This document shows positions 11,699 through 55,659 of a stretch of DNA of 64,000 bases, piece by piece (the first letter of the stretch is position 1; each line of letters opens with the position of its first letter). Both the position numbers and the translations under genes were made by a program. The notes below the pieces were generated by a model. The model ran no database searches and had not been told where the DNA came from. It saw only the letters and a list, made by a program, of their open reading frames with translations. The DNA comes from Azolla caroliniana. Lineage: Eukaryota; Plantae; Polypodiophyta. The stretch spans positions 2,480,001 through 2,544,000 of the forward strand of contig JBHGNT010000009.1 in NCBI GenBank assembly GCA_043228905.1, given 5' to 3'.

Positions 11699-12010
11699 TG
11701 TCATGATGTAGCATGGTATGGCTTCAAATGAATTTGAACCCATGAACTTGTGTCACATAGGTTGATGCCCTACCATTAAGCTATATATTGTAATACAAAG
11801 AATATTATTTCCATTTATTATTTCACTTAGGAAATCCATGTATATTCTAGATTTATGGGGAACATTCTAGAAATGTCAAGAGTACTCCTAAGCATACTAT
11901 AAAAAGAGGCACCCGGCATTATTGAGAACCAATTCGATTCAACGTCAAGCTTAAGCCTTCTAGCTATTCTTGTATATTCTCTTCATATAATATAATATAT
12001 CTTTGTTATC

Positions 12011-12054
<44 letters not shown>

Positions 12055-12138
12055 AGAATTCTACATCTTCTTTTCCTCTTAGTACTAATCCTCATCTCTA
12101 GTACTAATTCCCTCTTTGCCTTAGTACTATTCTTGACA
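11699..12138 (+). mobile_element. 3' LTR of a Tcn1-like chromovirus
   Basis: TGTCATG...CTTGACA directly after the PPT; TATA box near 11898; same layout as the LTRs at 49980 and 55231. Confidence 0.85.
11721..11790 (-). promoter_or_regulatory. tRNA-like Pol III A-box/B-box module in LTR U3
   Basis: A box TAGCTTAATGG (11783-11773) and B box GGTTCAAATTC (11740-11730); starts 43 nt apart. Confidence 0.7.
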
Positions 12139-12290
12139 TGAGGAAAATCAGGAGTTTGAAGAAGGCCCTGAGCAGGTCATTCTCGATGAAGGATATGGGT
12201 TCGGCAAAGCAAATCCTGGGGATGCACATTGTTCGGGATCGGACAAAGAATGTAATATGGTTGTCACAGGAGAAATACATGACAAAAATA
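12139..12290 (+). pseudogene. Ty1/copia RT fragment
   Basis: Translates to RKIRSLKKALSRSFSMKDMGSAKQILGMHIVRDRTKNVIWLSQEKY, similar to 26920-27060. Confidence 0.8.
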
Positions 12291-12384
12291 TAATATTTCC
12301 CTTTCAATTCTCCGTCTTTCTTTGTCTTAGCACTATACTTCTCTCTCTCTTGACACTATTCATCTAAAATATTGTGCATTGTCG

Positions 12385-13240
12385 CGATTGGGTTCTCACA
12401 TTGAAATCTTCTACAAGGAAGATTTCTTAGTGGGAAGAATATCGGATTATGTCATCCGATAAAGGTTCGTATGGAGAAAGCCCATGTGCACTCCTTCATC
12501 AACTAACCTCGCCTCTCCAACCATATTATAACGGGATCCTTTCGGGGGAAAGTAACAAATGGCAAAAAATACTGCTTGGTCCTTGTTAGTGAAGACTTTC
12601 ATGCACATAAAATGAGCATCTTCGTTTTTCCTTAGTATTTCTATCCTATTATGCAGCTCTCTCCGAAACAATATTGCAACACCTCCAGATCCTCTAGTAG
12701 TGCGTCAACGTGAGGTTTGTCTAAATACGAACTCCCAAATAAATCCTTCTACTCGTGGGAATTTTCTAGTTGGGCTTTGGTGTGTTTCTACCAAGAAAAG
12801 TATATATGATACCATTAATATCTCCTCTCGGCAGTCGGGGTGTGTCTAGAGTGTTTTCTGTCACATGGGCCGGACACCATCAATTAGTAGTGTGATCATT
12901 TATTATCCCTCTTCCGTCCCAATAAAAAGCACGATGTCCTTCTTTACGAGCTTGTCTGACTCATGTCATACAACTTTTGCAGTGCTCAATTTGCATCTTA
13001 GTGAGGTCTTTATCTAGATAGATAGGGTCCCACCTAATCCTCGAAGAATCGATTTCTTCTTAAAAAATGTGAATTGAGATTATAAGTCTTTAAACTGAAG
13101 TACTAAGGCTCTCTTCCTAGTTGTGTCACATGAGGGAGCGTGAGACAGAGAGCGTGAGAGAGTGGCATGAAGTGTTATGAGCTAAAGCTTCAACTTCTAT
13201 GACAATATTCCCAAAACCATTCACCTTTGTTCTCTTTGTC
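12385..13240 (-). mobile_element. LINE remnant (end of ORF1 and AP-endonuclease of ORF2)
   Basis: IYLDKDLT (ORF1 end); LVETH, GSGGVAILFRREL and AICYFPP endonuclease motifs; many stops. Confidence 0.65.
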
Positions 13241-13299
13241 CTCCTCAAATTCTTCCTATTGTTCTGATCACCGCCATCATCATGATGACTCTAATTCTG

Positions 13300-13410
13300 A
13301 TTCTGAGGATCACCATGGTCCATGACTATGATTCATCTGATTATGAAGATCACCATGGTTCATGACTATGATTCATCTGATTATGAGGATCACCATGACT
13401 ATGATTCATC
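13300..13410 (+). repeat. Tandem repeat of about 42 bp (GATCACCATGGTTCATGACTATGATTCATCTGATTATGAG), about 3 copies
   Basis: Direct repeats visible. Confidence 0.8.
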
Positions 13411-13955: not shown

Positions 13956-13993
<38 letters not shown>

Positions 13994-15025: not shown

Positions 15026-15063
<38 letters not shown>

Positions 15064-19100: not shown

Positions 19101-19273
19101 TGATATATTGGATGTATTGATCCATAAAAAGCTTCACTAAAGATAGCTGTGGATCTCAATTTTTATACATAGTGGAGACCCCCCCCCCCCCCCGGGTTGT
19201 TCATACTCTGGTAGCAGCTTTGTTATCTATGAGGCACTTCTTTGAATGATCTTCTCTCTAGTCCTTGGTAGCC

Positions 19274-20551
19274 ATGGTGATGCCTTGCAGTGCTCGACTC
19301 CACTTTCGCTACCACCACGCGATGATTGCTGCGACAATCATCTTGGTCACCATCTTATATTTAATTTCTTCCTCAATGCTGCTCTATTCAGGGTCCAGTA
19401 CAGGCCTTTCGTCGATATTGTATAGATATTCGGATGGATTGCATGACATGATGTCGGTGATCCGCGACAGCTACTGCGTTGGCGAATGGGCCCCGCCACG
19501 GCATTTCTGGCATGACATGGATGCCCATCCTCTCCCGGCCTGCACCATGGAAACCTGTTTCAACCGCTCGCGTTGCGATGCTTCCGACATTAACCAGCTC
19601 AAAGTCTATGTCTATAAGTATGAGGAATTGCACTACCTACGTTCCGAGGATACGGAGCTTCCCTTCTACTTCGGTGCTCTATCGGAGTCGCACTGGGTGA
19701 CCGATGATCCGGAGTCTGCATGCATTCTCCTTGTTCCACTCCTGCTCGAGCTCTCGGAAGAATGGCGACGCCCGTTTCGCTCTTTGCCGCATTGGAACGG
19801 GGGATTAAATCACGTGATCACATCCTTGGCCGACAAGTTGCACACAGATATCATTGCCAATCCTGCCTCCATTGGAATGGCCTCTATCGCCGCATCGTGT
19901 CTTGAGCTGACGTCGTTTCGCCCCGGATTCGACGTCGCCATCCCGTTGCCTGGCCTGTCTCACTTCCGGCATCTCGCACCGCTCCCACCCCGGGCGCGCA
20001 AATATTTCCTTACATTCCAAGGCACACGCTATATCGGAAACAAGGAAGGCAATTTCCGCGGCGATCCGTCGTTCCGCTCCTTACACAATGGGCGGGATGT
20101 GATAGTTGTGGTCTCGTGCAATCAGCCGACAAACAACAGGATTCGCATACGATGTCCGCATCTGAATGCCGGGTGCGATGATGATGAGGCCACATTCAGG
20201 AAGTACACGTACGAGGAGCTAATGAATTCGACCTTTGGCCTAGCACCAGCGGGGAGGTCGTCATCGTCCTATAGGATCATTGAGGTGATGAGCGCCGGAA
20301 CGATCCCAGTTATCGTGGCCGACAATTACGTGGAGCCATTGGGAAATGGCAAGTTGATGATCAAGTGGGGTCGGTGCGCGTTGAGGTTCGGGACGACGGA
20401 AATGAGCAGCATACTGCCGGCACTCCGGGCGATTTCCGAGGAAGAGTTGAAAAGCAGGCAAGCCTATTGTGTGCGAGTGTATGAGGAGTATTTGAAGGAT
20501 GACAATGCTCTCCTTGGGTCGGTCCTTAGGTCTCTCTTCCTACGCCTTTAA
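19274..20551 (+). CDS. Exostosin-family (GT47) glycosyltransferase, type II membrane protein, EXT1 N-domain-like, single exon
   Basis: Intact ORF of about 425 aa with an N-terminal signal anchor (IAATIILVTILYLISSSMLLY). Motifs CTMETCF, KVYVY, TDDPESAC, WNGGLNH, FRPGFDVAIPL, RKYFLTFQGTRY, STFGLAPAGR..SYRIIE, IPVIVAD. Confidence 0.92.
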   Translation: MVMPCSARLHFRYHHAMIAATIILVTILYLISSSMLLYSGSSTGLSSILYRYSDGLHDMMSVIRDSYCVGEWAPPRHFWHDMDAHPLPACTMETCFNRSRCDASDINQLKVYVYKYEELHYLRSEDTELPFYFGALSESHWVTDDPESACILLVPLLLELSEEWRRPFRSLPHWNGGLNHVITSLADKLHTDIIANPASIGMASIAASCLELTSFRPGFDVAIPLPGLSHFRHLAPLPPRARKYFLTFQGTRYIGNKEGNFRGDPSFRSLHNGRDVIVVVSCNQPTNNRIRIRCPHLNAGCDDDEATFRKYTYEELMNSTFGLAPAGRSSSSYRIIEVMSAGTIPVIVADNYVEPLGNGKLMIKWGRCALRFGTTEMSSILPALRAISEEELKSRQAYCVRVYEEYLKDDNALLGSVLRSLFLRL

Positions 20552-20989: not shown

Positions 20990-22600
20990 AATCACCTCTT
21001 GTAATTATGTTCACTCCCCCTTGTTAACATGTATTTGTAATAAAACAATATTGTGATTAGCATTAACCTATCATGGCTCACTAACATCCTCATGTTCTTA
21101 CTCTTGTTGAGAAACATCTCCATCTGTAGCATTGTCAGTTGTAGGAATTTCTTTGACCTTGTCAATAATTTAAATGGTTTGATCCTCAACCTACATTATG
21201 ACTCCTAATAAGCTTATTTTTCATGACTCATAATACATATAAGTTTACAACCAAATTCTTCTTAGACCTTTCATCGTTATGTTCCTACACAAAAAAATTA
21301 CAACCAAGCACATGTAAATGACCATAAGAAACATCCTTACCATACCAAACTACAATGAAATAGTAGGAACATCACTGTATAGTGCAATAATAGGAAATAT
21401 ACCAATAACATATGTAATGGTATTCAAAGCCTCACTTGCAAAAGATTTGTGATGCAAAGTTCATACGAATGTGAGACAACCTTTTATTTCATTATTTTTA
21501 TATGCATGTACTTTCAATCACATTTACAAGATTTGTTGAAGTAGAGGCTTTCAAAAAATAGAAGATTTCTTATCATGAGCCACCAGCTAGGAACTTTGAA
21601 TGTACTTCCATTGACCCTCATTAAAGATATGCAAATGTACATTATCATCTAACTTACCTTTGGAGATAAAAGGTTACCTTATATTTGTACATACTTCAAC
21701 TCCTTGCGGATCAACTTGCTCTTGAGTTGGACTCCAAATAAACAATTATGGTATCTACTACCTTTGATTGTCCATCATTTACCTTCATGACTCCAAAGTG
21801 TCAAGTATAGGATGTGAAGAACTAACTCTTTTTTATCATTGATATGAAATTATCCATTATTGTCAACAACCCAATCAATTCCCTGGCAAGCAAAATTTAT
21901 CATGTTCTCATCATAAAAAACAAGCCACTCATTTAAAGAAGTTGCATTAACACAATGAGTTCTATCATCTTCACCCATTTGTTGATGATTACTACTGGAT
22001 TTGTGGTTTTAGATTTAGTTTTACATTAACATGATAAGCTCTATCATCTACACCCCGTCTATTCTTTATTACTATTGGATGCATGGTTCCATTGTGAGTA
22101 GCATTAGTCAACTTGACATGAGTCTAAACATTTCCCACAAAGTAGGAAGTATGTTAAGCAACCAAAGAGCAAGAATATTATCATCAAGTTTAACATGCAT
22201 GCCAAACAATTGATTCAATTGATCAGAAATGGAGTTAAACTCTTTGTAAGTCAAGTACGTGGTTTTCCTAAGCGAACACAACTTATTATTACATGTCTTA
22301 AAAGATGATCAAGTTTCAAGTTTATTCCATAATGTTTTAGCATTTGCTTTGTTTCCAATGCAATTGAAAACTTTTATTCCTACCGAGTTAAGAATATTAA
22401 AGCCACATATGTGTTAGTTCTAGAAAAACACTCATTGGTGGTTTTGCTTTTAGGTTTTTAGGTTTTTAGGTTTTGTTTTTGAGAAATTATTACATTTAAC
22501 CTCTACATTCATCATAAAAAAGTTTTCCTCCATTTGGTAATCAAACAAATGTTAAAACATGACGTGAACATCATGGCTTCACCTGGACTTGAACCATTAA
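20990..22600 (-). mobile_element. Highly degenerate Ty1/copia remnant
   Basis: Minus-strand PPT-like AAGGGGGAGTGA near 21011-21022 and scattered copia-like peptide fragments; no intact ORF. Confidence 0.45.
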
Positions 22601-22713
22601 GATAGCTTATTGTCATATAAAAATAATAAAAGCTACCTTTAATAATATATTGATCATTGTAAAAGTCTAGAACATTCTAGAATGTTCTAGAATATCCTAG
22701 AACATCTTAGAAT

Positions 22714-22823
22714 TGTCAAGAATAGTACTAAAGACATAGAGGGAATTCGTACTAGAGATAGAGGAGGAAAGTACTATGAGGATTAGTAATAAGAGGAAGG
22801 GAGTGTGTGGAACTCACGAGAGA

Positions 22824-22860
<37 letters not shown>

Positions 22861-23044
22861 ATGATGACACCAAGAAGTATATTATATGAAGAAAGATACA
22901 AGAACAACTAAGAAGCTTAAGACTAACAATGAAAATAATATTTTTTGTATTACAATGCATAGTTTAATGGTAGGGGTTCAACCCATGTAACATGAGGTCA
23001 TGGGTTGAAATCCTTTTGGAGCCATACCATGCCATATCATGACA
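22714..23044 (-). mobile_element. Solo LTR (relative of the LTR at 11699) inserted in a TCTAGA-rich LTR-like sequence
   Basis: TGTCAAG...CATGACA; 5-bp TSD AGAAT at 22709-22713 and 23045-23049; A box TAGTTTAATGG (22960) and B box GGTTGAAATCC (23003) on the + strand. Confidence 0.88.
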
Positions 23045-23248
23045 AGAATATTATAGGTCTAGAACATTCTAGAACATTACAAAAATATCTAGACTATTCT
23101 ATAGGAACCTTTAAATAGAGACATACAAGTATTCTCAAATAAACTCAAATCAAACTATCGGAATAGTGTAAAAGATAGAGTGATGGAAGAAGGATATAAA
23201 GAGAATAGAAGAAGAAAGGAACGAGATTATTAGAGAAGAATGGGTGTA

Positions 23249-25335
23249 TTAAGATAAGATGTGCACACAAGGACCTGGTTTGTCTGGAAATTGACGATGG
23301 AAATTTTCAAGAAGTGCTCGAGCATTGACCACATTCTCTATTGGTTCCCAAGTATGCTTGCTTAGACTATAGCCTAGCCAATAGACCAAATTGTAGAGCT
23401 TGTTGTGAACAATCTTGGAATCGAGGATGGCAGCAACCTCGTACTCATGTCCATCTTCAAATTCGATCGGGGGTGGAGGTGGTATAATACGATTGGGAAT
23501 AGTGTTGTCTTGATAGGGTTCTAGAAGAGAATATGAAATACCAGATGTATCCGTAGTTGCAGAGGTAGATCTAGGCAAAAAGTGACATCACTAATTTTTT
23601 CGTTAATACGGAAAGGGCCTAACCGTCGATAATCCAGTTTGTCACATGGTCGAGTAGTCTTGATGTGTCGTCATAATAGCCATACTCTATCTCCAATACC
23701 AAAATAGGATGGAAGCTAATGACGATCCGCATAATCCTTCAGTGTTTGTTGGGTGTGATGTAGGTGGGTAGATAGTTCTACCTGAATTCGTCGTAGCCAC
23801 CCCAAATGATCCTCTGCACTAGGATTTGTGGGGAACTCAGGAGTTTTGCACACCAACAAGGATGATAGCCTATATAAGCATAGAATGGTGTAACCCTAGT
23901 AGAGGAGTGGATAAAATTATTATAAGAAAATTCAACAAAGTGGAGAATATCTATTCAATCATCTTGTTGATAGCTTATGAAACACCGAAGATACTATTCC
24001 AGCATTTGATTGGTACATTCTGCTTGTGCATCTGTTTGGGGATGGTAGCCGAAGGAGAGATTGCAGGTGACCTTGAGCATTTTGAAGAGATGCTTCCAAA
24101 ATTTAGAGACGAATTGAGGTCCACGATCATTGATGATACTATTGGGAAGACCATGATGCCGAAATACTTCACGCATAACAATTCCTGTCGGGAAGACCAT
24201 GATTTCTTTAGTACAGGGCACGAAATGTGCCATCTTAGTATATCAATCTACCACTATTAAGATCGCATTAAAGCCCTTCGAATCTAGAAGATCTGTGATA
24301 AAATCCAGAGGAATAGATTGTCACGGTTTGCTTGGGATCGGTAATGGCTCCAACAAACCATGTGGATGATTCCTAGGCATCTTCGCTCTACAACATGTAT
24401 CACATGTCCGAACATAGTCTTCGACAAATCTTCGCATATAAGGCCACCAAAATGATCGTTATACTAAATCCAACGTTTTAGTACTACCAAAATGTCTGGT
24501 TGGGTATGTGTCATGACAATTTTGTACTATTCAAAGGCGACATGAACCATTGGGAACATACAAAAGTTTCTTAAATAAGAGTAATCCATCGTGACATTGG
24601 AATTGTCGACAATCTGTACCTGGTTGTGGTGACCATGAACAAGATGCCCAAGAGGGATCAATTTGATCTACAATAGCTTGAGCGAAAACATCTGACTTCA
24701 AATCTTCGTGTATGGTATCGATAATGCGGGAATCCAATTGAGTGTCAAAAACCCATGTTGCTTGAAGTTGTGTCGGTCCCAGGATTACTTGCTTTTGATT
24801 GTCGAAGGTCGGATCACCAGGATGACAAGCTAGATATGAGCGTCGTGATAATGCATCTACCTTCCCCCATTGCTTGCCCGGACGATATGTAATCTTGAAG
24901 TCGAAACGAGTGAGGAACGGGGCCCACCGAGCTTGTCGTCTATTTAATATGCAAGCATTCTGGAAGTAGGCAAGATTCTTATGATCACTAAATACAGTGA
25001 CTTGATGAGGATATCCTTCTAAAAAAAGCCTTCTCATCGTCGCCTTGATGTGACAAAATACTACCGAGGGCAAAATCTAACACGCTTGCCTCATTGATGA
25101 ATGGTTTTTGCGGATCAACATGAGTTAGAATAGGAGCCGATGTAAATGCTTTCTTGAGACCCTCAAAAGTCGTGTCCGCTTCCTTTGTCCAAACAAATTA
25201 TTGCCCCTTCTTTGTAAGTTGTGTGAGCGGCAAAATAAGCTTTGAGTAGTCCTATATAAACTTGCGATAGAAATTTGCGAATCCTAAAAAACATTGCACA
25301 TCTCGCAACGAACGTGGAATTTGCCACTCTAATAC
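23249..25335 (-). pseudogene. pol: Degenerate Tcn1-like chromovirus pol (RT end, RNase H, integrase, chromodomain)
   Basis: SDHKNLAYF, NRRQARWA, FRHHGLPNSIINDRGPQF, YHPQTD, EYEVAAILDSK; colinear with the intact Pol at 50434. Confidence 0.9.
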
Positions 25336-25347
25336 AACTAACAGGTA

Positions 25348-35071: not shown

Positions 35072-36244
35072 ATGGCGCCGCCCGGATGCAAAAGCTCCTC
35101 GGCTCGGCCGCCACTGCCGCGTTGTTCGGTGGGCTTCCTCCTCCTCCTCCTAAGCCTCTCTGCATTAGCATTGTCGAGTTCTTCCGTATTTCCGGTAGAA
35201 GCACACAGCGGCGCGGCCAGGAAATTGAAAGGCGAAGACCACAATGCCGGGGCAGCCACTGAGTACTACGACTCCTCGTCCTCGCAAACCGACCTAGACC
35301 TCGACCTCGACCTCGACCTCGGATGGATGTCCTCTTTCCTCCTCCATCTTTGGAGCACTACGCAGCACCCTCACCGTGTGCCGCCGCCACCCCACCGTAT
35401 ACCTCCTCCCCCGCATCGATTGCCACCACCAATTTTGCCATCTCCTCCACCGCCGCCATCTCCGCCACCACCTGACGCCAGCCCTCCGTCACCGCCGCCA
35501 TCTCCGCCCCCACCTGACGCCAGCCCTCCTCCTCCGCCGCCGCCATCTCCGCCGCCACCTGACGCCAGCCCTCCGCCGCCGCCGCCACCTGACGCCAGCC
35601 CTCCTCCGCCGCCGCCATCTCCGCCGCCACCTGACGCTAGCCCTCCTCCACCGCCACCATCTCCGCCACCACCTGACGCAAGCCCTCCTCCGCCGCCACC
35701 ATCTCCGCCGCCACCGTCCCCTCCCCCACCACCCTCTCCGCCTCCACCGCCACCCTCTCCTCCTCCACCTGACGCCAGCCCTCCACCGCCTCCGCCTCCA
35801 CCTTCGCCTCCACCGCCACCCTCCCCTCCTCCACCTGACGCCAGCCCCCCACCCCCCTCTCCACCTCCACCTCCTTCGCCTCCTCCGCCGCCGTCTCCGC
35901 CGCCACCTTCTCCTCCCCCTCCGCCGTCTCCGCCTCCACCATCTCCTCCGCCGCCGTCTCCGCCGCCACCTTCTCCTCCCCCTCCGCCGTCTCCGCCTCC
36001 ACCATCTCCTCCGCCGCCGTCTCCGCCACCACCTTCTCCTCCCCCGCCCTCTCCGCCGCCGCCTTCCCCTCCTCCTCCCTCTCCGCCACCACCTTCTCCT
36101 CCACCGCCCTCTCCGCCGCCACCTCCCTCTCCTCCCCCACCGTCTCCGCCTCCGCCTCCGCCTTCACCGCCACCACCCTCTCCGCCTCCACCTTCTCCAC
36201 CGCCGCCCGACTCAACCTCTTATTTCTCCTCCGCCAACATTTAA
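35072..36244 (+). CDS. Secreted proline-rich extensin-like hydroxyproline-rich glycoprotein
   Basis: Signal peptide (VGFLLLLLSLSALALSSSS..VEA), ARKL motif, HRxPPPP repeats, then about 260 aa of SP(3-7) and PDASPPPP repeats with varied Pro codons; single exon. Confidence 0.85.
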   Translation: MAPPGCKSSSARPPLPRCSVGFLLLLLSLSALALSSSSVFPVEAHSGAARKLKGEDHNAGAATEYYDSSSSQTDLDLDLDLDLGWMSSFLLHLWSTTQHPHRVPPPPHRIPPPPHRLPPPILPSPPPPPSPPPPDASPPSPPPSPPPPDASPPPPPPPSPPPPDASPPPPPPPDASPPPPPPSPPPPDASPPPPPPSPPPPDASPPPPPPSPPPPSPPPPPSPPPPPPSPPPPDASPPPPPPPPSPPPPPSPPPPDASPPPPSPPPPPSPPPPPSPPPPSPPPPPSPPPPSPPPPSPPPPSPPPPPSPPPPSPPPPSPPPPSPPPPSPPPPSPPPPSPPPPSPPPPSPPPPPSPPPPSPPPPPPSPPPPSPPPPSPPPPDSTSYFSSANI

Positions 36245-45629: not shown

Positions 45630-46487
45630 TCGTGCTTGCCATTCGAAGATAACGCAATATCTTCATCAAATCGGCTTCCGTATGTCAAAATCGGACAACT
45701 CCCTCTACATACGAAGCGATTCCGCAAGTCCGATCGTCCTACATCCTCAACGGCACTACATCCTCAACTTGCTATACAAGTTCGGGATGGCTGAATGCAA
45801 ATCCGCAACAACCCCGCTCGATCGCAATCTCAAACTGGATGCGAACTCTGGCACCAAAGCGTGTGAGCCGACTCAGTATTAGCAACTCATCGGGAGTCTC
45901 ATCTACCTCACGATCACTCGACCCGATCTCAGTTATCCAATCGATCTCCTTAGCCAATTCATGCAAACACCGCGTGATACTCACTTGGATTGCGTTAAGC
46001 GAGTTCTACGATACGTGAGCGGCACAATGGATTGCGGCATCCTCTACAAGACCGATGTCGTGATGTGGCATGTCTAGTGCGAGAAAAAGTCAAAAATTGA
46101 GGATCCACACGGTTTTAAACCCATGGTTTCCTGCATGTCACAAAGCAAAACTGTGTGCATAGAAACCATGGCTCCAAGCCCATGGTTTTGTGCATGGACA
46201 AACCTATAAAACCCCTAGTACGGCTTGTGTAAAGGGGGGGGGGGGGGGGCTCAATATGAGATGACCATCATCATCACCATCAATAATATAAGCTTCTATT
46301 TCTTCTTCTTCGCATCTATCTTGTAATTATTTATCTACTTCTAAAAGTGTACAATATTCAATCTTCTCAAGTGTAATAGGTCTTCCTCCAATCTTACATT
46401 CATATCGTCCTCTTCTCAATACCTTGACGGACATCCTCCTTGGTCCAAGACCCCGGTGGTCCCGCTCAAGCGAAGCACGCTCGCATG

Positions 46488-46958
46488 TGTCAAGACTAAG
46501 AGAGAGAAAGAGAGAGAAAAAGAGATAGAGAGATAATTGAAAGAGAATTATTATATTGAAGCGTAAAATGGATTACAAAGAGTAGGCTACAAAATGGCGT
46601 TGAACCAATTTAGGTTTGGGATGGGTGGTAGATCCCTATTTATAAGTAATAGAGAACTCTCTAGAATATTCTAGGTTATCCTAGAATGTAGAGTAATCTA
46701 GAAGATCTCTAGAGTATTCTAGAAGGTTCTAGTGGTATAGAACACTCTAGACTATTCTAGGTCATTCTAGAATGTAGAGTAATATAGAATATTCCTATGA
46801 TATTAGATTTCATATTCTAGAGACTATACATAAAAGAATATTAATACAATGGTTAAGGATTTGACATGTGTACAACAAGGTCGTGGGTTCAAATCCTTTC
46901 GAGTCATAATGTGAGTGTCATGATCCTTTCGATGCATGATGTGACTGTTATCATGACA
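46488..46958 (-). mobile_element. Solo LTR of a self-priming chromovirus family, nested in the 5' LTR of element C
   Basis: TGTCAAG...CATGACA; TSD GCATG at 46483-46487 and 46959-46963; minus-strand TATAAATA followed 33 nt later by AAATTGGTTCAAC; A/B boxes at 46842 and 46886 (+). Confidence 0.9.
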
Positions 46959-47016
46959 GCATGCGCATCTTCGCGACATTTTTTGGTGAACCCGACGTGA
47001 AGAGCGGTAGGGGAGG

Positions 47017-48804
47017 ATGAAGCTGGACGAGGAATATCTAATGAAGGCAATGTCAAAGATGATGATGGAGTTTTCAAGAGAAGGGAAAACACGACATGCG
47101 GCCCAACAAGCCGTCGAAAGCATGATCGAGCGAGTCGGGTTTTTCGATGGAGGCAAAGTCCAAAAATTTCTAAAGGCCTACAATGCCGAAATGGATTCAA
47201 GAGGAGTGGAGGAAGCAATGAGGCTGGAGTACTTTTGTCAAGTGGTGGCCGAACCGATCTTCGAAGAGATTAAAGAGATTCAAAAAACTCACGATTCGTG
47301 GGTGTCCTTCAAAGAAGCTTTACGAGAATCATATGGTTACGAACAGCAAAAGGGACGAGGTCTGTATGAGTTTCACGAATGGGTGTCATCGAGAAAGACC
47401 CACCAGAGTGCTATGCATGCATTCGTTGAGTTTGAGTATCGCTTTGCTCAACTCTCGGACTGGGATCGAAGATTGGTGGGGGTGAATAAAGTTCTGATGT
47501 TTGTAAAGTCAATCGATCGGAATGAAAGGAAGGCCATTGGAATCCAACTCGAGGATGACAATGGTGAAAATGGCCTCACTGAGGATTGGGCCAAAGTGGA
47601 AAGGGTATGCCGACAACACGATAAGAGGGAAATGAGACTCTCATCGACAACAACACGAGCCACAAGGGATGTTCAAAGGAGAATGGGATGTGGTAATAAA
47701 AACCCACTGAAGGAAGAAAGCTCGAAGAGGGAAGCTTCGAAAGAACTCAACATAGAAGCCTTGATGAGAGAGGCATTAATGAACTTAAAGGCACAAGTCG
47801 AGGTTGAAGAGAAGCTGAAAACAAAACCGAGGAAAATGGTGATCGACGAAGAGGAGACCTCCCGACAAATGCAGACTAATGGTGCGGCCAATGCGAAGGC
47901 CTAGGTTTGGTATGATGGTACCATGGGAGAAGGTGTGAAACAAGCCACCTTCTCGACTTATGGAGGAACGACGGTCAAGAGAAAGGCCGAAGACTCGAGA
48001 GCGGGAAATGCTACTTTAAGAGTGGACGAGCATTTTGGAACACATGTTGTGTCCGAAATATTGAGTAATGAAGGTGCAAGCATGAGGGAAGCTTGCGTGA
48101 TCAAGGGATGTAAAGAGTGCGAGGTCGACGTGATTGAGGTAGTAGCCACGAGGAACGACATCGAGTCGCAGATGGCTAAGGAAGAGTCCACGGCGAATGA
48201 CCATGTCGAGACTTTCCCAACACTTGATCTAGAGACTTGGGCAGTTGCGTCCGAGAGCCAACATGAGACCCAAGAGACGGAAAGTAGTGGGGAAGAAAAT
48301 ATTGAAGACAATGTGAATAACAACATTGAGCGAAAGATGGCTACGGATGAGAAGACGGTGACCGATGGTGTCGAGGTTCTCCCCACAATTGTTCCTGAGA
48401 CTTCGGCAGTTGTGCCCGAGTGTCAACGTGAGACCGGAGAGACGGAAGGTGGCGGCTGGAAATCGAAGGACCGAAACAATGATGAGGAGGATGGCCACAG
48501 ACGAAGGAATCCCTCCACACCGATTCTGGAGACTTCGGCAGTTGTGCCCGAGAGCGAACATAAGACCGGAGAGATGGAAGGTGGCGGCGAGGAGATGAGG
48601 GTCGACGCCAGCGCATACCGAGGAACGGTGGCCAACAAGGACGCCAAAAACAAAGCTACAATAGAGTTCGATGAAGAGCCAGATAGCGGCAAGAAAGGAA
48701 GAACCAGAATACAATCCGGATGGAAGATGACGCGGTTGGTATTCCGACCCGAACGAGAGTTGATCAAACGGGCCCGACCCAACCAAAAACCGGATGGAAA
48801 CTGA
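47017..48804 (+). pseudogene. gag: Gag-like ORF with acidic repetitive extension (in-frame TAG at 47902-47904)
   Basis: FDGGKVQKFLKAYNAEM...SWVSFKEALRESY...FVEFEYRFAQL capsid-like motifs; ORF 47923-48804 is in the same frame and carries ETSAVVPE..TGE.EGGG repeats. Confidence 0.7.
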
Positions 48805-49424
48805 CCCAGACGAAAGTCGATCGTCTGAGTCTGATTCGGCCGAATGTGAATCCAGAGGAAGGCCGACCAAGCCAGAAGCTGATTGGTTGAGACAGACAAA
48901 AGTTGAACCGGTCTAGGCGGAGGTCGAAGCAGATGAGTCGTGACACCCGGTTGAGGCTAGCGAGAATAAGGAAAGGCAAGCATGAGACGAGAAATGATGA
49001 TAAAGGAAAGTTAGGTGACCAAGGAGATGGTCGAGATGAAGGTGGCACATGCATGAGGCATGAAGCGTTATGCTCGGGAGGAGCAAAGGGAGCCATGACA
49101 ACTAGACATGGCAATAAAAAAGGTGAGTGAATGATATGGTGGATCGGATGGCAACGACAGTTTGAAGTAGACGACAAAAAGACGGTGCGAACGAGGCGCA
49201 AGAAAGGAGGAAATCAAACACCAACCACCTTTGACCCTTCCACATCACTCTTTTCTTCTTGGCACATACCGGAGGATGTGCGGTTTGGTGGGGGTGGATG
49301 TCGTGATGTGGCATGTCTAGTGCGAGAAAAAGTCAAAAATTGAGGATCCACAGACATTTCACGAATACTTGTAAAAATGAAAATAAATAAACCTAGGTCA
49401 CAATGGCATTGAGTGCATGTAGAG

Positions 49425-49497
49425 GGTTGCAAGTAGGATTTGAACCTTGCACCTCTAAGATAAGAGGCAATTACCTTACCACTAAAACTACTACTAA
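49425..49497 (-). promoter_or_regulatory. tRNA-like A-box/B-box module in the 3' LTR of element C
   Basis: A box TAGTTTTAGTGG (49490-49479) and B box GGTTCAAATCC (49446-49436); starts 44 nt apart. Confidence 0.7.
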
Positions 49498-50358
49498 GTG
49501 CTTTAGGTGTTCTATATTTCTTTCTCATATTCAGTATTCCGTAGGAAACAAACGAACAAAACCGTGTACACAAAACCACGGTTTTAAGCCCATGGTTTCC
49601 TGCATGTCACAAAGCAAAACTGTGTGCATAGAAACCATGGCTCCAAGCCCATGGTTTTGTGCATGGACAAACCTATAAAACCCCTAGTACGGCTTGTGTA
49701 AAGGGGGGGGCTCAATATGAGATGACCATCATCATCATCATCAATAATATAAGCTTCTATTTCTTCTTCTTCGCATCTATCTTGTAATTATTTATCTACT
49801 TCTGAAAGTGTACAATCTTCAATCTTCTCAAGTGTAATAGGTCTTCCTCCAATCTTACATTCATATCGTCCTCTTCTCAATACCTTGACGGACATCCTCC
49901 TTGGTCCAAGACCCCGGTGGTCCCGCTCAAGCGAAGCACGCTTGCACGCGCATCTTCGCGACACCGCAATGCCAATACGTGTCAGGAATAGTACTAAAAC
50001 AGAGATGGAATTAGTACTAAGAACAGCAGTACTATTAGTACTAAGAGGACGGGACCGCGTAAGATTCCCGAGAGAGGAAGTGAGAAGAGGAGAGAGAGAG
50101 ATATATAGCGAGAATGAGAGAGAGAGAGAGAGATGATGACAGCAGCTATATATTATGTGAAAAGATAAGTACAAGCGGCTAAGAGGCTTAAGACTGGTGT
50201 TGAACCAATTTGGTTCAAAACAATGCCTTGTGCCTCCTTTTATAGTGTTTTTAGGAATAATCCTGAAGCTTCTAGAATGTTCCAGAGAGATCTGGAATAT
50301 ACATCAATTTTCTATGATAAAGTATAAATGAAAATAATGTCCTACAAAATACAATTCA

Positions 50359-50412
50359 TAATCTAATGGTAAGAGCTCGACCCATGTAGCATAAAGTCAT
50401 GGGTTCGAGTCT
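50359..50412 (+). promoter_or_regulatory. tRNA-like A-box/B-box module in the 3' LTR of element D
   Basis: TAATCTAATGG (50359) and GGTTCGAGTCT (50402); starts 43 nt apart. Confidence 0.65.
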
Positions 50413-50433
50413 TGCCATGACACTATCTCCCCC

Positions 50434-53400
50434 TTAAAGACGACGAGTGGAACGAGTCGGCGCTAATTGCGGACCGGGTTTGTCCGGATACTTTCGGTGG
50501 AAATCAGCAAGAAGATCTTGTGCATTGGCAACATTCTCGACGGGTTCCCAAGTACGTTCGCTCGGACTATAACCTAGCCAATCGACCAAGTAATAAAGTT
50601 TGTTGCGAACAAGTTTGGAATCGAGGATGGCAGCAACTTCATACTCCGGGCCGGCGTCCAACTCCAGCGGGGGCGGCGGTGGTGTCACACGATCGGGAAT
50701 GGTGTTTGCTTTATAAGGTTCAAGAAGAGAACAATGGAAAACCGGATGTATCTGAAGCTGCGGAGGGAGATCCAGGCGGAAGGTGACATCATTAATCTTC
50801 CCCGTAATACGGAAAGGACCGAGTCGTCGATAATCCAACTTGTCGCACGGTCGAGTAGTCTTGATGTGACGACGTAAGAGCCATACTCGATCTCCGATGG
50901 CAAAAGAGGAGGGAATCCGATGACGATCCGCATAAGTTTTCTGTGTGTGTTGAGCATGACGAAGGTGAGTAGAGAGATCCATCTGGATCTTGCGTAGCCT
51001 CTCCAAATGGTCCTCGGCACGAGGGTTGGTAGGTAGCTCCGGAGTGTCGATCACCGACCAGCGAGGATGGAAACCGGTATAAGCGAGAAATGGGGAGACC
51101 CGAGTCGAGGAGTGAATAGCATTATTATACGCAAACTCCGCAAAGTGGAGAATCTCGGCCCAATCGTCCTGTTGATAACTCAGAAAACACCGGAGATATT
51201 GCTCCAACGTTTGGTTTGTTCGTTCCGCCTGTCCATCAGTTTGAGGATGGTAGCCGGAGGAGAGGATGCAGGAGACCTTGAGCATCCTGAAGAGATGCTG
51301 CCAAAATTTGGAGACAAATTGCGGGCCTCGGTCACTGATAATACTGTCTGGTAGGCCATGATGCCGAAATACCTCCCGCATAACAAGAGCGGCGGTTTCC
51401 TCGCTAGTGATGGCTTTAGTACATGGCACAAAATGTGCCATCTTCGTATATCGATCGACGACGGTTAGGATAGCATCGAACCCCTTCGAGACCGGCAGAT
51501 CTGTAATAAAATCAAGACAAGTAGACTGCCATGGCTTACTTGGAATTGGTAAAGGTTCCAACAAGCCATATGGATGGTGTCGTGGCATCTTTGCTCGGCA
51601 GCAAGCATCACAGGTCCGAACGTAGTCGTCGACAAAACGGCGCATGTGGGGCCACCAAAAAGATCGCTGCACTAACTCCAACGTCTTGGTACTACCGAAA
51701 TGTCCCGCCGTATGGGTGTCGTGACAATGTTGGACGATTTGAAGGCGACAGGAGCAATCGGGGACATATACGCGCTTTTTAAAGAATAACAAACCATCAT
51801 GATATTCGAATTGTCGGTAGTCAATACCTGGTTGTTGAGACTGAGAACAGGATGCCCGAGAAGTATCAATGTGCGCCAGGATGTCTTGAGCAAAACTATC
51901 CGTCTTCAAGGTTGCACGTATGTCATCGGTAATCCGTGAATCCATCGGGGTGTGAAAAATCCGCGTCGTGTGCAATCGTGTTGGTCCCAAGATTACTTGC
52001 TTTTGATTATCAAATGTTGCGTCACCAGGACGAGGTGCAAGATATGAACGCCGTGATAGTGCATCTGCTTTTCCTTGCTGCTTCCCCGGTCGATATGTGA
52101 TTTCGAAGTTGAAACGCGTGAGGAATTGCGCCCACCGAGCTTGCCGTCGATTTAGTACGCGAGCGTTCTGAAAATAAGCAAGATTTTTATGATCGCTAAA
52201 GATAATGACCTGATGTGGAGAGCCCTCTAAGAAATGCCGCCATTGTACAAATGAATCCACGATGGCTAATAACTCCTTGTCATGTATTTCGTAGTTGATT
52301 TCTGCGACATTGAATTTGCGCGAATGGAAAGCCACCGGATGCAACTCTTCTTTATCGCCTTGTTGAGAAAGGATGATACCGAGGGCGAAATCTGATGCGT
52401 CGGCCTCCATGATGAATGGTTTGCTTGTATCCACATGAGCTAGAATCGGTGCTGATGTAAAGGCTTTCTTAAGATGCCGAAAAGCCATATCTGCTTCGAT
52501 GGACCAAAGAAATGCTTGGCCCTTCTTCGTAAGTTGTGTGAGAGGTAAAATAATCTTCGAGTAATCCTGTATAAACTTACGGTAGAAGTTAGCAAAGCCT
52601 AGAAAACATTGTACATCTCGTACCGACCGTGGAATTTGCCACTCTAGTACAGTTTGGATTTTAGCTGGATCCATGGCGATGCCCTTTGAGGAGATGACGT
52701 AGCCTAGAAATTCCACTTGCTTGCAGTCAAAGCTACATTTCTCTAGCTTGGCATAAAGACCATTCTCGCGGAGTCGCTTTAGTACTAATAGTACATGAGA
52801 ATTGTGCTCTTCCTGGGTCTTCGAATAAATCAACAGATCATCCAGATAAATGATCAAACAGATATCCAAGAGGTCTCTGAATATATCATTTGCCATGTGT
52901 TGGAAGACTGCGGGTGCATTGGTTAGGCCAAACGGCATAACAGTATACTCGAAATGCCCATACCGCGTGCGAAAAGCGGTCTTCCACTCATCTCCCGGTC
53001 GGATCCGCACGAGATTATATGCTCCTCGTAGGTCGATTTTAGTAAAAAACTTGGCACCATTAACTTGCTCTAAAAGACTTGATATAAGAGGAAGTGCATA
53101 CCTATTCCGGATGGTGACTTTATTCAATCCGCGGTAATCAACGACAAGACGAAGTGAGCCATCTTTCTTCTTGACAAAGAAGATGGGTGCACCGGCCGGA
53201 GATTTCGAATGACGGATGAACCCGCTTGCCAAGTTCTCCTCTATGTAGGCTCGAAGGACTTCTAACTCGGTGGGTGACAAGTTGTAAATTGGTCCCCAGG
53301 GTGGCTCGGTTCCTGGTTGTAAATCGATGGGACAGTCATAGGGACGGTGATGAGGAAGGGTACCGGCTTTTACCTTGTCAAATACATCGGCATAAGGATG

Positions 53401-54006
53401 ATATTTTGCCGGAAGTTGTATTGAGGAGTCCTTCTTAATAGTGCTAGAAGGATGTACTGATATGGCAAATAGGAACATTGCCTCCTTGGGTCCTTCTTCG
53501 CGTAGTTGATGGAGTGAAATGGTCGAAACTCGGTGAGTTGATTCTTGGGGTGGTCGATATCGGACTTCTCTTGTTCTCCAATCTATGGCTGGATTATGTA
53601 ATTCAAGCCAAGGTAATCCTAGGACAATGGGATGCTCTGGACTACTAATTATATTAAATGATATTATACACACAAAACTACCTAGGACAACTTGAATGGG
53701 TTCTGATTCTTCTACAATATTCCCGGAAGCAATGGGACGACCATCAATGACCACTACAGATGCGGGACAAGGAAGTTTTCTTAAGGATATCTGAGAAGCT
53801 TGGGCAAAATTTCGATCCATGAAACAGGAATTAGCTCCGGAATCTAAAAGTGCTAGGACGGGTACTGGGGGAGTACTTTTAGTACTAACAATGACTTGGG
53901 CTAGGAACACATTGCTAACTTGCTTGGAAGGAATGGAACCACTAATGGGCTGTACAGATCTAGGGCTGCTGTCCAACCAAATGGCTCCTATTTTGGCTGG
54001 ACTCAA
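50434..54006 (-). CDS. pol: Pol polyprotein (protease, RT, RNase H, integrase, chromodomain), probably expressed by -1 frameshift
   Basis: Uninterrupted 1190 codons: LLDSGA, YLDD, DASD, HHCC zinc finger, SDRGPQF, GQAERTN, GPF, chromodomain EYEVAAILDSK..YLVDWLGY..TWEP. Confidence 0.96.
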   Translation of the reverse strand: MSPAKIGAIWLDSSPRSVQPISGSIPSKQVSNVFLAQVIVSTKSTPPVPVLALLDSGANSCFMDRNFAQASQISLRKLPCPASVVVIDGRPIASGNIVEESEPIQVVLGSFVCIISFNIISSPEHPIVLGLPWLELHNPAIDWRTREVRYRPPQESTHRVSTISLHQLREEGPKEAMFLFAISVHPSSTIKKDSSIQLPAKYHPYADVFDKVKAGTLPHHRPYDCPIDLQPGTEPPWGPIYNLSPTELEVLRAYIEENLASGFIRHSKSPAGAPIFFVKKKDGSLRLVVDYRGLNKVTIRNRYALPLISSLLEQVNGAKFFTKIDLRGAYNLVRIRPGDEWKTAFRTRYGHFEYTVMPFGLTNAPAVFQHMANDIFRDLLDICLIIYLDDLLIYSKTQEEHNSHVLLVLKRLRENGLYAKLEKCSFDCKQVEFLGYVISSKGIAMDPAKIQTVLEWQIPRSVRDVQCFLGFANFYRKFIQDYSKIILPLTQLTKKGQAFLWSIEADMAFRHLKKAFTSAPILAHVDTSKPFIMEADASDFALGIILSQQGDKEELHPVAFHSRKFNVAEINYEIHDKELLAIVDSFVQWRHFLEGSPHQVIIFSDHKNLAYFQNARVLNRRQARWAQFLTRFNFEITYRPGKQQGKADALSRRSYLAPRPGDATFDNQKQVILGPTRLHTTRIFHTPMDSRITDDIRATLKTDSFAQDILAHIDTSRASCSQSQQPGIDYRQFEYHDGLLFFKKRVYVPDCSCRLQIVQHCHDTHTAGHFGSTKTLELVQRSFWWPHMRRFVDDYVRTCDACCRAKMPRHHPYGLLEPLPIPSKPWQSTCLDFITDLPVSKGFDAILTVVDRYTKMAHFVPCTKAITSEETAALVMREVFRHHGLPDSIISDRGPQFVSKFWQHLFRMLKVSCILSSGYHPQTDGQAERTNQTLEQYLRCFLSYQQDDWAEILHFAEFAYNNAIHSSTRVSPFLAYTGFHPRWSVIDTPELPTNPRAEDHLERLRKIQMDLSTHLRHAQHTQKTYADRHRIPSSFAIGDRVWLLRRHIKTTRPCDKLDYRRLGPFRITGKINDVTFRLDLPPQLQIHPVFHCSLLEPYKANTIPDRVTPPPPPLELDAGPEYEVAAILDSKLVRNKLYYLVDWLGYSPSERTWEPVENVANAQDLLADFHRKYPDKPGPQLAPTRSTRRL

Positions 54007-55160
54007 TCGTTTAACTCTTCATCTAATTGACTAAGGATTTCAAATTTATTTGAGATACTTGGGCTATTAGTACTATGAATACTATCTGACACTCTATTAG
54101 TACTATTAATATTATCAGACACTCCGAAGGGAAGAATTGACTCGGGTTTAGTACAGGCGACGATTTGATTTACCTGTCTTCTTAGCCTATGGGGACAATT
54201 GATGGCGATATGTCCTGGTCCACCGCAATAAAGACATAATCGATTGGCACGTCGTCGTTGCTTTTCTTCTTCCGATAACGGGCCGCGTCGACGCATGGTA
54301 TCGATCTCCATCGGTGTCGAAGTATTTGCTTGAGGTATGTCTCGTGCAAACGGTTTAGCCGCGACTGCGGCGTAAGTGGGCTCTGGCCTAGAGCGTGGTA
54401 TCTGTAATTGACGTTCTGAACGCCGTTCAAAAAGGCGGTTGTCACATCGAACTGCTCGACTGATTGCCTCCGTAAGAGACTTTGGTTCTTCGGGGAAAGT
54501 TAGAAGTAGATCTTTGACATCGTTTCGCAAGCCATAGCGAAACTGCTCCATTAGTGCTTGATCATCCCAGGGTATATCTGAAGCAAGTAGGCGGAAATCC
54601 GCCGCGTAGGCAGAGGCTGGACGATCGCCTTGACGCAATCGCCGGATCTTGTTGATCGCCGTCCTGATGTTGTCGGTGTCTCCAAAGCAGGCTTTAAACT
54701 CACCAATAAAATCTTCAAAGTTATTAAGTAAGGGTGATTGTTTTTCTAGAAGCGGAGCAAACCATGCCAAGGCTGAGCCGCTAAGTAGCGTGCCTATTAG
54801 GCCGACTCGAGATGCATCTGTGGGATATCGGGAAGGATGCATCTGGATGACTAAGCGTACCTGATTAAGGAATCCCCGGAATTGCGAATGCGTTCCATCA
54901 AATTTCACAGGAAGTCCAATCTTGGGCTCTTTATGAAATCCTTGGGGACTGGATCCTTGTTGTTGCAACGCTGCTTCGAGTTGTTGTACCCGTAACGCTA
55001 ACTCCCCATGTTGTTGTTGCGTTTGTTGTTTTTCTAGAGCGATTTGTTGCAGATCCCCTATCAGCCGTTGGTTTTCTTGTTCCAGGGCAACAAACTTTTC
55101 TTTTAGGCACTGTAGCTCGGAGAAAACGGATTGGTATTCTTGGGCGCTAACAGTAGCCAT
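54003..55160 (-). CDS. gag: Gag (coiled coil, PEG10/RTL1-like capsid, CCHC knuckle)
   Basis: KEPKIGLPVKFDG..FRGFLNQ, LLSGSALAWF, LRQGDRPASAYAADF, PMEID, CLYCGGPGHIAINC. Confidence 0.95.
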   Translation of the reverse strand: MATVSAQEYQSVFSELQCLKEKFVALEQENQRLIGDLQQIALEKQQTQQQHGELALRVQQLEAALQQQGSSPQGFHKEPKIGLPVKFDGTHSQFRGFLNQVRLVIQMHPSRYPTDASRVGLIGTLLSGSALAWFAPLLEKQSPLLNNFEDFIGEFKACFGDTDNIRTAINKIRRLRQGDRPASAYAADFRLLASDIPWDDQALMEQFRYGLRNDVKDLLLTFPEEPKSLTEAISRAVRCDNRLFERRSERQLQIPRSRPEPTYAAVAAKPFARDIPQANTSTPMEIDTMRRRGPLSEEEKQRRRANRLCLYCGGPGHIAINCPHRLRRQVNQIVACTKPESILPFGVSDNINSTNRVSDSIHSTNSPSISNKFEILSQLDEELND

Positions 55161-55216
55161 AGTATAGGGAAAAGGGTAGGAGGATGAGGGAGAGTGACAA
55201 GTAAGCTAGAGGAAGC

Positions 55217-55228
55217 AAATTGGTTCAA
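55217..55228 (-). promoter_or_regulatory. Self-priming PBS of element D
   Basis: Minus-strand TTGAACCAATTT lies 2 nt after the 5' LTR and is complementary to AAATTGGTTCAA at the predicted transcript start (55458-55447); it is not a TGG-type tRNA PBS. Confidence 0.8.
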
Positions 55229-55605
55229 ACTGTCAGGAATAGTACTAAAACAGAGATGGAATTAGTACTAAGAACAGCAGTACTATTAGTACTAAGAGGA
55301 CGGGACCGCGTAAGATTCCCGAGAGAGGAAGTGAGAAGAGGAGAGAGAGAGAGATAGCGAGAATGAGAGAGAGAGAGAGATGATGACAGCAGCTATATAT
55401 TATGTGAAAAGATAAGTACAAGCGGCTAAGAGGCTTAAGACTAGCGTTGAACCAATTTGGTTCAAAACAATGCCTTGTGCCTCCTTTTATAGTGTTTTTA
55501 GGAATAATCCTGAAGCTTCTAGAATGTTCCAGAGAGATCTGGAATATACATCAATTTTCTATGATAAAGTATAAATGAAAATAATATCCTACAAAATACA
55601 ATTCA

Positions 55606-55659
55606 TAATCTAATGGTAAGAGCTTGACCCATGTAGCATAAAGTCATGGGTTCGAGTCT
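55606..55659 (+). promoter_or_regulatory. tRNA-like A-box/B-box module in the 5' LTR of element D
   Basis: TAATCTAATGG (55606) and GGTTCGAGTCT (55649). Confidence 0.65.

What the first reader, a model, noticed from the sequence alone, without database searches (positions are those of the whole stretch)
11721..55659. Antisense tRNA-like Pol III promoter modules in the U3 of several LTR families, including an intact autonomous element
Seen: six LTRs carry an A box and a B box whose starts are 43-44 nt apart, as T8 and G52 are in a tRNA. They are 11783/11740 (-; TAGCTTAATGG/GGTTCAAATTC), 22960/23003 (+), 46842/46886 (+; B box GGTTCAAATCC), 49490/49446 (-; TAGTTTTAGTGG/GGTTCAAATCC), 50359/50402 (+) and 55606/55649 (+). 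In every case the module is antisense to the element and near the outer (5') edge of U3. The surrounding LTR sequence diverges, and hosts include self-priming chromoviruses and a tRNA-Trp-primed gypsy. A full cloverleaf is not retained, so these are not tRNA genes. Established: small-RNA-derived LTRs are known in non-autonomous TRIMs (5S in Cassandra, tRNA-like in Helenus), and TFIIIC-bound boxes can act as chromatin barriers. Inference: either a convergently acquired insulator protecting the Pol II LTR promoter in heterochromatin, or an outward-firing Pol III promoter. In element D the 3' LTR copy would transcribe antisense over the PPT and chromodomain to the first T4 near 50937.
Basis: partly seen in the sequence, partly recalled or inferred. 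Interest (0 to 1): 0.85.

Follow-up and report, generated by a model that had tools for sequence, protein, structure and literature searches.

The report
Retrotransposons carrying conserved backward tRNA promoter
A whole branch of self-copying jumping genes, probably from a fern, has kept the two signal boxes of a tRNA-type promoter, facing outward at the outer edge of its terminal repeats, while the DNA around them has drifted to background similarity; the boxes likely dock the RNA polymerase III machinery, which would shield the element's own promoter from silent chromatin (not tested).

Summary
Observation confirmed. The six sites are the only A/B-box pairs in the window with 2 or fewer mismatches to the consensus (shuffles give 0-1). 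Five belong to one clade of self-priming Tcn1-type chromoviruses, including intact element D (49980-55669). The 46842 site is a nested solo chromovirus LTR, not the Trp-primed LTR. Only 49490 belongs to an unrelated, gag-only element. Relatives were fetched by integrase/chromodomain, not by motif. All 13 clade loci with a visible 3' LTR carry the module, antisense, spaced 43-44 nt; a profile finds it in none of the 101 other loci. Fixed box positions are 80% identical between lineages, against 40% for four-fold codon sites and upstream U3. tRNA stems do not covary and no terminator or product is conserved. So selection acts on a DNA-level Pol III promoter, inherited once in chromoviruses and probably gained separately once. 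The best reading is a product-independent TFIIIC/TFIIIB boundary protecting the LTR promoter; occupancy, transcription and function are untested. It is not Helenus (sense, non-autonomous). An earlier scan note (e1-9852194) describes a decaying antisense tRNA relic in a probably fungal LTR.

The parts
49980..55669 (-). Element D: intact self-priming Tcn1-type chromovirus, TSD ATACG, LTRs 433/438 identical
55231..55669 (-). D 5' LTR: module at outer edge, AT-rich tract, TTCTAGAA repeats, Pol II TATA-like site at 55483-55491, putative self-primer at 55446-55459
55606..55659 (+). A box (55606) to B box (55649) module, antisense to D, facing out of the element
55216..55230 (-). Self-priming PBS, complementary to the sequence just downstream of the LTR TATA-like site
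   Evidence: sequence; self-priming predicted for Tcn1 in PMC6317226
54003..55205 (-). gag ORF (400 aa stop to stop), overlaps pol by 16 nt
50434..54018 (-). pol ORF (1194 aa): PR, RT, RNase H, IN, SH3, chromodomain; no internal stop
49980..50422 (-). D 3' LTR, preceded by the PPT at about 50423-50437
50359..50412 (+). A/B module of D's 3' LTR; most laid contig depth has the canonical G at 50361
11700..12138 (+). 3' LTR of a truncated relative of D, with chromodomain remnant and PPT upstream
11730..11783 (-). A/B module in that LTR
22714..23044 (-). Solo chromovirus LTR (TSD AGAAT) with an internal deletion of the TATA/enhancer region, nested in another LTR
22960..23013 (+). A/B module in that solo LTR; T4 directly after the B box
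22585..22604 (-). Collapsed module (A and B boxes abut, spacer deleted at AACC) in the host LTR of about 22550-23270, which resembles locus L002
46488..46958 (-). Solo chromovirus LTR (TSD GCATG) nested in the Trp-primed 5' LTR
46842..46896 (+). A/B module in that solo LTR
46056..49963 (+).
49436..49490 (-). A/B module in that element's 3' LTR, inside a 226-nt segment (49351-49576) that belongs to the family LTR and is deleted from this copy's 5' LTR

Best explanation
The outer U3 of this chromovirus clade, probably from a fern, holds an outward-facing tRNA-type A box/B box pair that has been conserved at the DNA level, and it likely recruits TFIIIC and TFIIIB to act as a built-in boundary that would keep the element's Pol II promoter open in silent chromatin. 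Shown: one inherited module, fixed orientation, spacing and position, box-specific conservation, no conserved tRNA fold, terminator or downstream sequence, an AT-rich tract on the inner side, and a divergent Pol II TATA 113-206 nt further in. Inferred: the module began as a captured tRNA or SINE head; TFIIIC binds it; the conserved A box positions TFIIIB on the AT-rich inner tract, back to back with the enhancer; the complex clears nucleosomes and blocks heterochromatin spread or read-through from the flank, which matters for an element whose chromodomain is expected to steer it into heterochromatin. Pol III may fire outward, but the RNA itself is probably incidental. An unrelated gag-only element probably gained a similar module separately.
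For: Unbiased sampling: loci were fetched by IN/chromodomain. 12 of 73 scorable loci have an antisense A/B pair with 3 or fewer mismatches within 300 nt of the chromodomain, 0 of 73 on the sense strand; all have spacing 43-44. L022 (4 mismatches) is the thirteenth. They form one clade with D: 17 rows, 14 with the module and 3 whose contig ends before the LTR. A profile from 10 lineages recovers 8 held-out members at E 4e-6 or better and nothing better than E 2.3 in the 101 other loci. Over 36 lineage pairs: protein 0.65, four-fold sites 0.40, upstream U3 0.40, spacer 0.50, fixed box positions 0.80. Over 45 pairs: fixed positions 0.79 (A) and 0.86 (B) against 0.51 and 0.47 at the N positions inside the same boxes; flanks near shuffled level. 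No stem pairs above column-shuffled expectation (p 0.08-0.72). The first T4 lies 0 to 1026 nt after the B box. Inner tract 77-93% AT in 16 of 16 chromovirus copies. The B-box CG survives in 6 of 10 lineages. Barrier, insulator, nucleosome-phasing and road-block roles of Pol III complexes are established in yeast (PMC4228148, passages).
Against: No occupancy, RNA or chromatin data: no whole genome is held and the runs laid were contigs. The box register was chosen by motif score, which inflates identity somewhat. Lineage pairs are not independent (20 of 45 spacer pairs still resemble each other). Single copies carry box mutations (L003, L009, L077, L007, L013). All 13 loci come from one assembly series by contig name, so host breadth is unknown. 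The same complex on the 3' LTR would lie in the path of the element's own Pol II transcript, a cost this model does not explain. Yeast tDNAs can also repress nearby Pol II promoters. The barrier evidence I read is from yeast, not plants. Other chromoviruses and the window's LTR pair 8444-8926/10614-11108 do without the module.
Confidence: 0.45

Rival explanations
1. The module is a working Pol III gene whose antisense RNA is the selected product: a short RNA over the LTR end, or a longer one over PPT and chromodomain from the 3' LTR, which tunes the element's expression, primes small RNAs or titrates silencing.
For: No T4 between the presumed start and the B box in 0 of 10 lineages against 3.8 expected (P 0.005), while A4 runs occur as expected (3 against 3.9). 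The A box is kept, as transcription requires. Foamy virus LTRs make Pol III RNAs from A/B boxes (PMC3993851, passages).
Against: The test was post hoc, and the untranscribed upstream tract is also short of T4 (3 against 5.8). Predicted length varies from about 75 to over 1000 nt, and downstream sequence is at shuffled level. T4 within 25 nt of the B box: 3 observed, 2.0 expected. No conserved fold.
Confidence: 0.2
2. The Pol III complex restrains or gates the neighbouring Pol II promoter (tRNA-gene-mediated silencing or a stress switch), keeping the element quiet until enhancer-bound factors override it.
For: Divergent geometry with 113-206 nt between A box and TATA. tgm silencing is established in yeast. 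Heat-shock-element-like TTCnnGAA arrays fill the gap in several lineages.
Against: A self-repressor needs selection at family level. The enhancer type differs among lineages while the module stays.
Confidence: 0.15
3. The module is a neutral tRNA/SINE relic carried along in U3.
For: Several single copies have damaged boxes, one window copy lost the spacer and another LTR lost the whole segment.
Against: Box positions are twice as conserved as four-fold sites and flanks, N positions inside the boxes vary like spacer, and spacing is fixed although the distance to the LTR end varies from 10 to 48 nt.
Confidence: 0.07
4. The conserved letters act in replication or integration rather than at the inserted promoter, for example the sense-strand B box pairing with the self-primer at the RNA 5' end, or TFIIIC/TFIIIB tethering cDNA to Pol III loci as for Ty3.
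For: The sense-strand B box resembles the PBS core (GAACC). Two window insertions sit about 110 and 490 nt upstream of another module (22714, 49980).
Against: 6 of 10 lineages keep TCGA, which mismatches the self-primer but fits a B box. The A box and spacing stay unexplained, and the Trp-type element does not self-prime. No module with 3 or fewer mismatches in 6 of 6 3' flanks examined, and no tRNA in 33 of 33 loci scanned.
Confidence: 0.1

Closest known systems
Helenus / TRIMp3 (Kojima 2024, PMC10886601; parts 1-5 of 6, passages and supplement passages read), with Cassandra and Ajax
   Same: tRNA-like sequence in an LTR; conservation concentrated on boxes A and B; no functional tRNA; a non-seed-plant member exists (Selaginella).
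   Different: Helenus are short non-autonomous TRIMs (311-1263 bp). The three LTR records I saw carry the tRNA part in sense orientation, where it is proposed to drive the genomic RNA. Here the hosts include a 5.7-kb autonomous element with its own Pol II TATA, and the module is antisense, so it cannot make the genomic RNA. The paper notes that 'not a few LTRs' in Repbase hold tRNA-like pieces but followed up only TRIMs.
Foamy virus LTR Pol III miRNA cassettes (PMC3993851, passages)
   Same: A/B-box Pol III promoters inside the LTR of an autonomous retroelement, overlapping the Pol II genomic transcript.
   Different: There a defined hairpin product with a terminator is the point. Here no product, fold or terminator is conserved.
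Yeast tDNA and ETC chromatin boundaries, tgm silencing and Pol II road-blocks (PMC4228148, passages)
   Same: Product-independent use of TFIIIC sites beside Pol II promoters: what this most likely works like.
   Different: Those are fixed host loci. Here the site travels as part of each LTR, keeps the A box as well as the B box, and has not been tested.
Tcn1 chromovirus clade (PMC6317226, PMC2864245, passages)
   Same: Chromodomain with aromatic cage residues, no tRNA PBS, self-priming, TG..CA LTRs of about 440 bp, 5-bp TSD.
   Different: The passages read describe Tcn1 from mosses, Selaginella and fungi, report no PCR clones from ferns, and mention no Pol III boxes in the LTR. None of the loci outside this sub-clade carries the module.

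Membership tests
TRIMp3 / Helenus | Short non-autonomous element (about 1.3 kb or less, no RT) | tested here: not met
   D is 5690 bp with open gag and pol; the gag-only element is 3.9 kb
TRIMp3 / Helenus | tRNA-like sequence in the LTR with conserved A and B boxes | tested here: met
TRIMp3 / Helenus | Small-RNA promoter oriented to make the element's template RNA | tested here: not met
   antisense in every bearer; sense in the three Helenus LTR records seen
tRNA gene | Cloverleaf with paired, covarying stems | tested here: not met
   ARAGORN and Rfam negative; stems at shuffled level
Type 2 Pol III promoter | A box and B box at tRNA spacing | tested here: met
   43-44 nt in all 18 aligned copies
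Type 2 Pol III promoter | TFIIIC/TFIIIB/Pol III occupancy and transcription | not testable with these tools
   only contig-level runs could be laid
tDNA/ETC-type chromatin boundary | Blocks heterochromatin spread or enhancer/read-through action in an assay | not testable with these tools
   needs reporter and mutant assays
Foamy-virus-type LTR Pol III small-RNA cassette | Conserved hairpin product with a terminator | tested here: not met
   first T4 at 0-1026 nt; downstream sequence at shuffled level
Independent SINE insertions into LTRs | Own TSD and tail, variable site and orientation | tested here: not met
   same site and strand across one clade; no free copy found in the window or 114 loci; a SINE origin of the ancestral capture was not tested
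Tcn1 chromovirus (element D) | Gypsy domain order with C-terminal chromodomain bearing aromatic cage residues | tested here: met
Tcn1 chromovirus (element D) | Self-priming PBS instead of a tRNA PBS | tested here: met
   PBS complementary to the LTR sequence 32-45 nt after the TATA-like site; the same arrangement in L007, L010 and L022
Tcn1 chromovirus (element D) | Clusters with reference Tcn1 sequences in an RT/IN tree | not tested
   no named Tcn1 reference was in my tree
Phygy-like non-chromovirus (49490 host) | pol phylogeny | not testable with these tools
   this copy has no pol; gag-like by Atlas features only; the NCGN-like 4-bp flank fits

The most novel reading that the evidence does not exclude
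Autonomous retrotransposons have domesticated a tRNA promoter, twice in one fern-like lineage, as a portable chromatin boundary: every new insertion arrives with its own TFIIIC/TFIIIB dock on the outer LTR edge, lets a heterochromatin-seeking chromovirus stay expressible where it lands, and seeds the genome with large numbers of Pol III-factor sites through solo LTRs.
Probability: 0.4. Interest if true: 0.85.

Novelty: new variant of a known kind. Interest (0 to 1): 0.68.

Why it matters
How elements that target heterochromatin stay transcribable there is an open question. A clade-wide, selected Pol III promoter at the LTR edge offers a specific answer that single B-box mutations can test. It also extends small-RNA-derived LTR promoters from short parasites that use them to make their RNA (TRIMp3) to autonomous elements that cannot use them that way. 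It would make a plant LTR family a large mobile source of TFIIIC sites, and would give a natural reporter for whether tRNA-type boundaries work in plants.

Tried and rejected
No whole genome is held for this window, so no genome-wide copy survey was possible. ARAGORN and Rfam found no tRNA in the window or in 33 loci. The single-protein search of viral contigs found no relative. Alignment searches of viral and prokaryote contigs gave 34 distant loci; 31 were scorable, one (L098) had a 3-mismatch pair with no profile support, and none carried the module. No RNA holder was listed among sequencing runs, which is no evidence on expression; run X20 proved to be probably DNA. tRNA-stem covariation: none. 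A conserved terminator: none. T4 avoidance inside the module looked significant but is weakened by the upstream control. Targeting upstream of Pol III modules: not supported by 6 flanks. B-box pairing with the self-primer: rejected. Weaker 3-mismatch pairs in the window (for example 8947/8904, which overlaps a PBS) are near the shuffled rate of 4-8. The source tRNA could not be assigned, since no tRNA reference set was on hand. The careful tree did not finish; the quick tree was used. A recalled remark about expanded tRNA counts in fern genomes was not found in the main text of PMC6786969 (passages; supplements not read). Look-ups of earlier findings by sequence and by place returned nothing.
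Full report
Setting. The window is repeat-rich plant DNA at 41.6% GC. A host GT47 gene (19262-20551) groups, on a long branch, in a 14-row clade whose 8 named members are all fern proteins (FastTree support 96), so the host is probably a fern. No genome is held.

Observation. The six A/B pairs are present as described. Against a generic, recalled tRNA consensus they are the only pairs in 64 kb with 2 or fewer mismatches, each with 1; six shuffles gave 0-1. ARAGORN and Rfam call no tRNA.

Anatomy. Element D (49980-55669, minus strand) has TSD ATACG, LTRs 433/438 identical, and open gag and pol with PR, RT, RNase H, IN, SH3 and chromodomain. Its PBS is complementary to the LTR sequence just after the TATA-like site, the self-priming arrangement predicted for Tcn1 (PMC6317226, passages). 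The LTRs at 11700-12138 and 22714-23044 are 71-85% identical to D's or to each other. Only 49490 belongs to that element (46056-49963), which has gag-like ORFs and no pol. Its module lies in a 226-nt segment missing from its 5' LTR. Contigs from four DNA runs bridge both edges of the segment, and none of the 15 joints shown (5 not shown) skips it, so the segment belongs to the family LTR and this 5' LTR has a deletion. Nearly all laid depth has G at 49487, which gives a canonical A box and removes the T4 seen in this copy. Likewise most depth has the canonical G at 50361 in D's family. A seventh LTR (about 22550-23270) keeps both boxes but has lost the spacer.

Relatives chosen without the motif. 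An alignment of the SH3-chromodomain region fetched the best 80 of 582 confirmed stretches from 11 of 64 parts of the metagenome collection. 73 of 80 had enough sequence after the chromodomain. 12 of 73 have an antisense pair with 3 or fewer mismatches and 0 of 73 a sense pair; all 12 have spacing 43-44 and lie at the start of the 3' LTR. L022 has the same layout with 4 mismatches. In a quick IQ-TREE tree of 80 rows (L073 left out as truncated; the careful search did not finish), D and these 13 loci form one clade (SH-aLRT 97) with 3 more loci whose contigs end too early. A profile of the 55-nt core from 10 lineages recovers 8 held-out copies at E 4e-6 or better, the Trp-type module only at E 0.21, and nothing better than E 2.3 in the 101 other loci, which include 34. 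All 13 bearers come from one assembly series, so the host range may be narrow. Runs under four organism codes hold related LTR pieces with A-box variants.

Selection on the boxes. Over 36 pairs of 9 lineages, protein identity is 0.65, four-fold degenerate sites 0.40, the 60 nt of U3 inward of the A box 0.40, the spacer 0.50 and the 14 fixed box positions 0.80. Over 45 pairs of 10 lineages, fixed positions are 0.79 (A) and 0.86 (B), N positions within the boxes 0.51 and 0.47, and both flanks are near shuffled level even with gaps allowed. A GGTC at the variable-loop position is also kept, and G10 is often T. The distance from B box to LTR end varies from 10 to 48 nt while the A-B distance varies by 1. 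Caveats: the register was set by motif score, pairs share ancestry, and some contigs are single decayed copies.

What is not conserved. No tRNA stem pairs more than column shuffles predict. The first T4 falls 0-1026 nt after the B box: inside the LTR or PPT in 6 of 10 lineages (counting L009), hundreds of bases on in D, L002 and L022. The module has no internal T4 in 10 of 10 lineages against 3.8 expected, a hint of real elongation, but the upstream tract is also short of T4 (3 against 5.8). The enhancer region differs: TTCnnGAA arrays in some lineages, other repeats in others.

Mechanism. Conserved boxes with no conserved product point to the bound complex rather than the RNA (inference). Keeping the A box and a fixed orientation suggests TFIIIB placement on the inner tract (77-93% AT), back to back with a Pol II TATA 113-206 nt away (inference). 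In yeast such complexes phase nucleosomes, act as barriers and insulators, block Pol II read-through, and can also repress neighbouring promoters (PMC4228148, passages). For an element with an aromatic-cage chromodomain, a boundary on the outer LTR edge is the reading I favour (0.45). Rivals: a functional antisense RNA (0.2), a repressor or switch (0.15), a replication or integration role (0.1), a neutral relic (0.07). That the boxes are under selection I put near 0.9. The cost of a road-block in the 3' LTR is unexplained.

Origins. One gain accounts for the chromoviruses. The Trp-type module shares only the boxes: its spacer resembles 1 of 10 chromovirus spacers at p 0.05 or less, against 20 of 45 pairs among chromoviruses, and its LTR has no BLAST match in the 80 loci. 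A second gain is likely but rests on one family. Summed contig depth rises several-fold over its B box, with divergent loose ends at the A box, hinting at further related repeats or host tRNA-like loci (depth is no copy number).

Known systems. Helenus/TRIMp3 (PMC10886601; parts 1-5 of 6, passages, supplement passages) share box-only conservation but are short, non-autonomous and, in the three records seen, sense. The paper says that other Repbase LTRs contain tRNA-like parts, so fragments like this have been glimpsed. Foamy virus LTRs use A/B boxes for miRNAs (PMC3993851, passages). Searches (listings only) showed no report of a conserved antisense A/B module in autonomous LTR retrotransposons; the library lacks most subscription papers, and Repbase reports were not searchable. 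An earlier scan note describes an antisense tRNA relic with one box, decaying, in a probably fungal LTR (e1-9852194; unchecked).

Verdict. A real, selected feature; a new variant of small-RNA-promoter-bearing LTRs; function inferred and directly testable. Interest 0.68.

Noticed in passing
window 22550-23270: An LTR like locus L002 whose A and B boxes are fused by deletion of the spacer at an AACC microhomology, with a module-bearing solo LTR inserted about 110 nt inward.
   Followed up: partly
window 49980-55669; L007, L010, L022: Tcn1-type self-priming chromoviruses in a probable fern host; PMC2864245 reported no Tcn1 clones from ferns. The putative start site sits in a conserved inverted repeat (GAACC..GGTTC) shared by the clade.
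   Followed up: partly
window 46640-46820, 22660-23105, 50255-50300: Arrays of TTCTAGAA (heat-shock-element-like; motif identity recalled) between module and TATA in several LTR lineages; other lineages (L006, L008, L010) have different repeated motifs there.
   Followed up: no
window 46056-49963: Gag-only LTR element with an NCGN-like 4-bp flank; its gag has relatives only among 12 unnamed proteins of 557-719 aa without Pfam hits.
   Followed up: partly
window 49430-49477: Summed contig depth several times that of the flanks, with recurrent alternative letters: other repeats or tRNA-like loci share this B-box region.
   Followed up: no
window 8444-11108: A third LTR family (LTRs 94% identical, tRNA-type PBS, short GA-rich interior) without the module.
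   Followed up: partly
P0034: A relative of D's pol that also carries PF00692 and PF22769 hits (PF00692 recalled as dUTPase).
   Followed up: no
window 35033-36925 and 19262-20551: Host genes among the repeats: a proline-rich, extensin-like repeat ORF and a single-ORF GT47 exostosin on a long branch.
   Followed up: partly
L085-L114: Thirty prokaryote genome records contain chromovirus-like integrase/chromodomain sequence, probably eukaryotic contamination of the assemblies.
   Followed up: no
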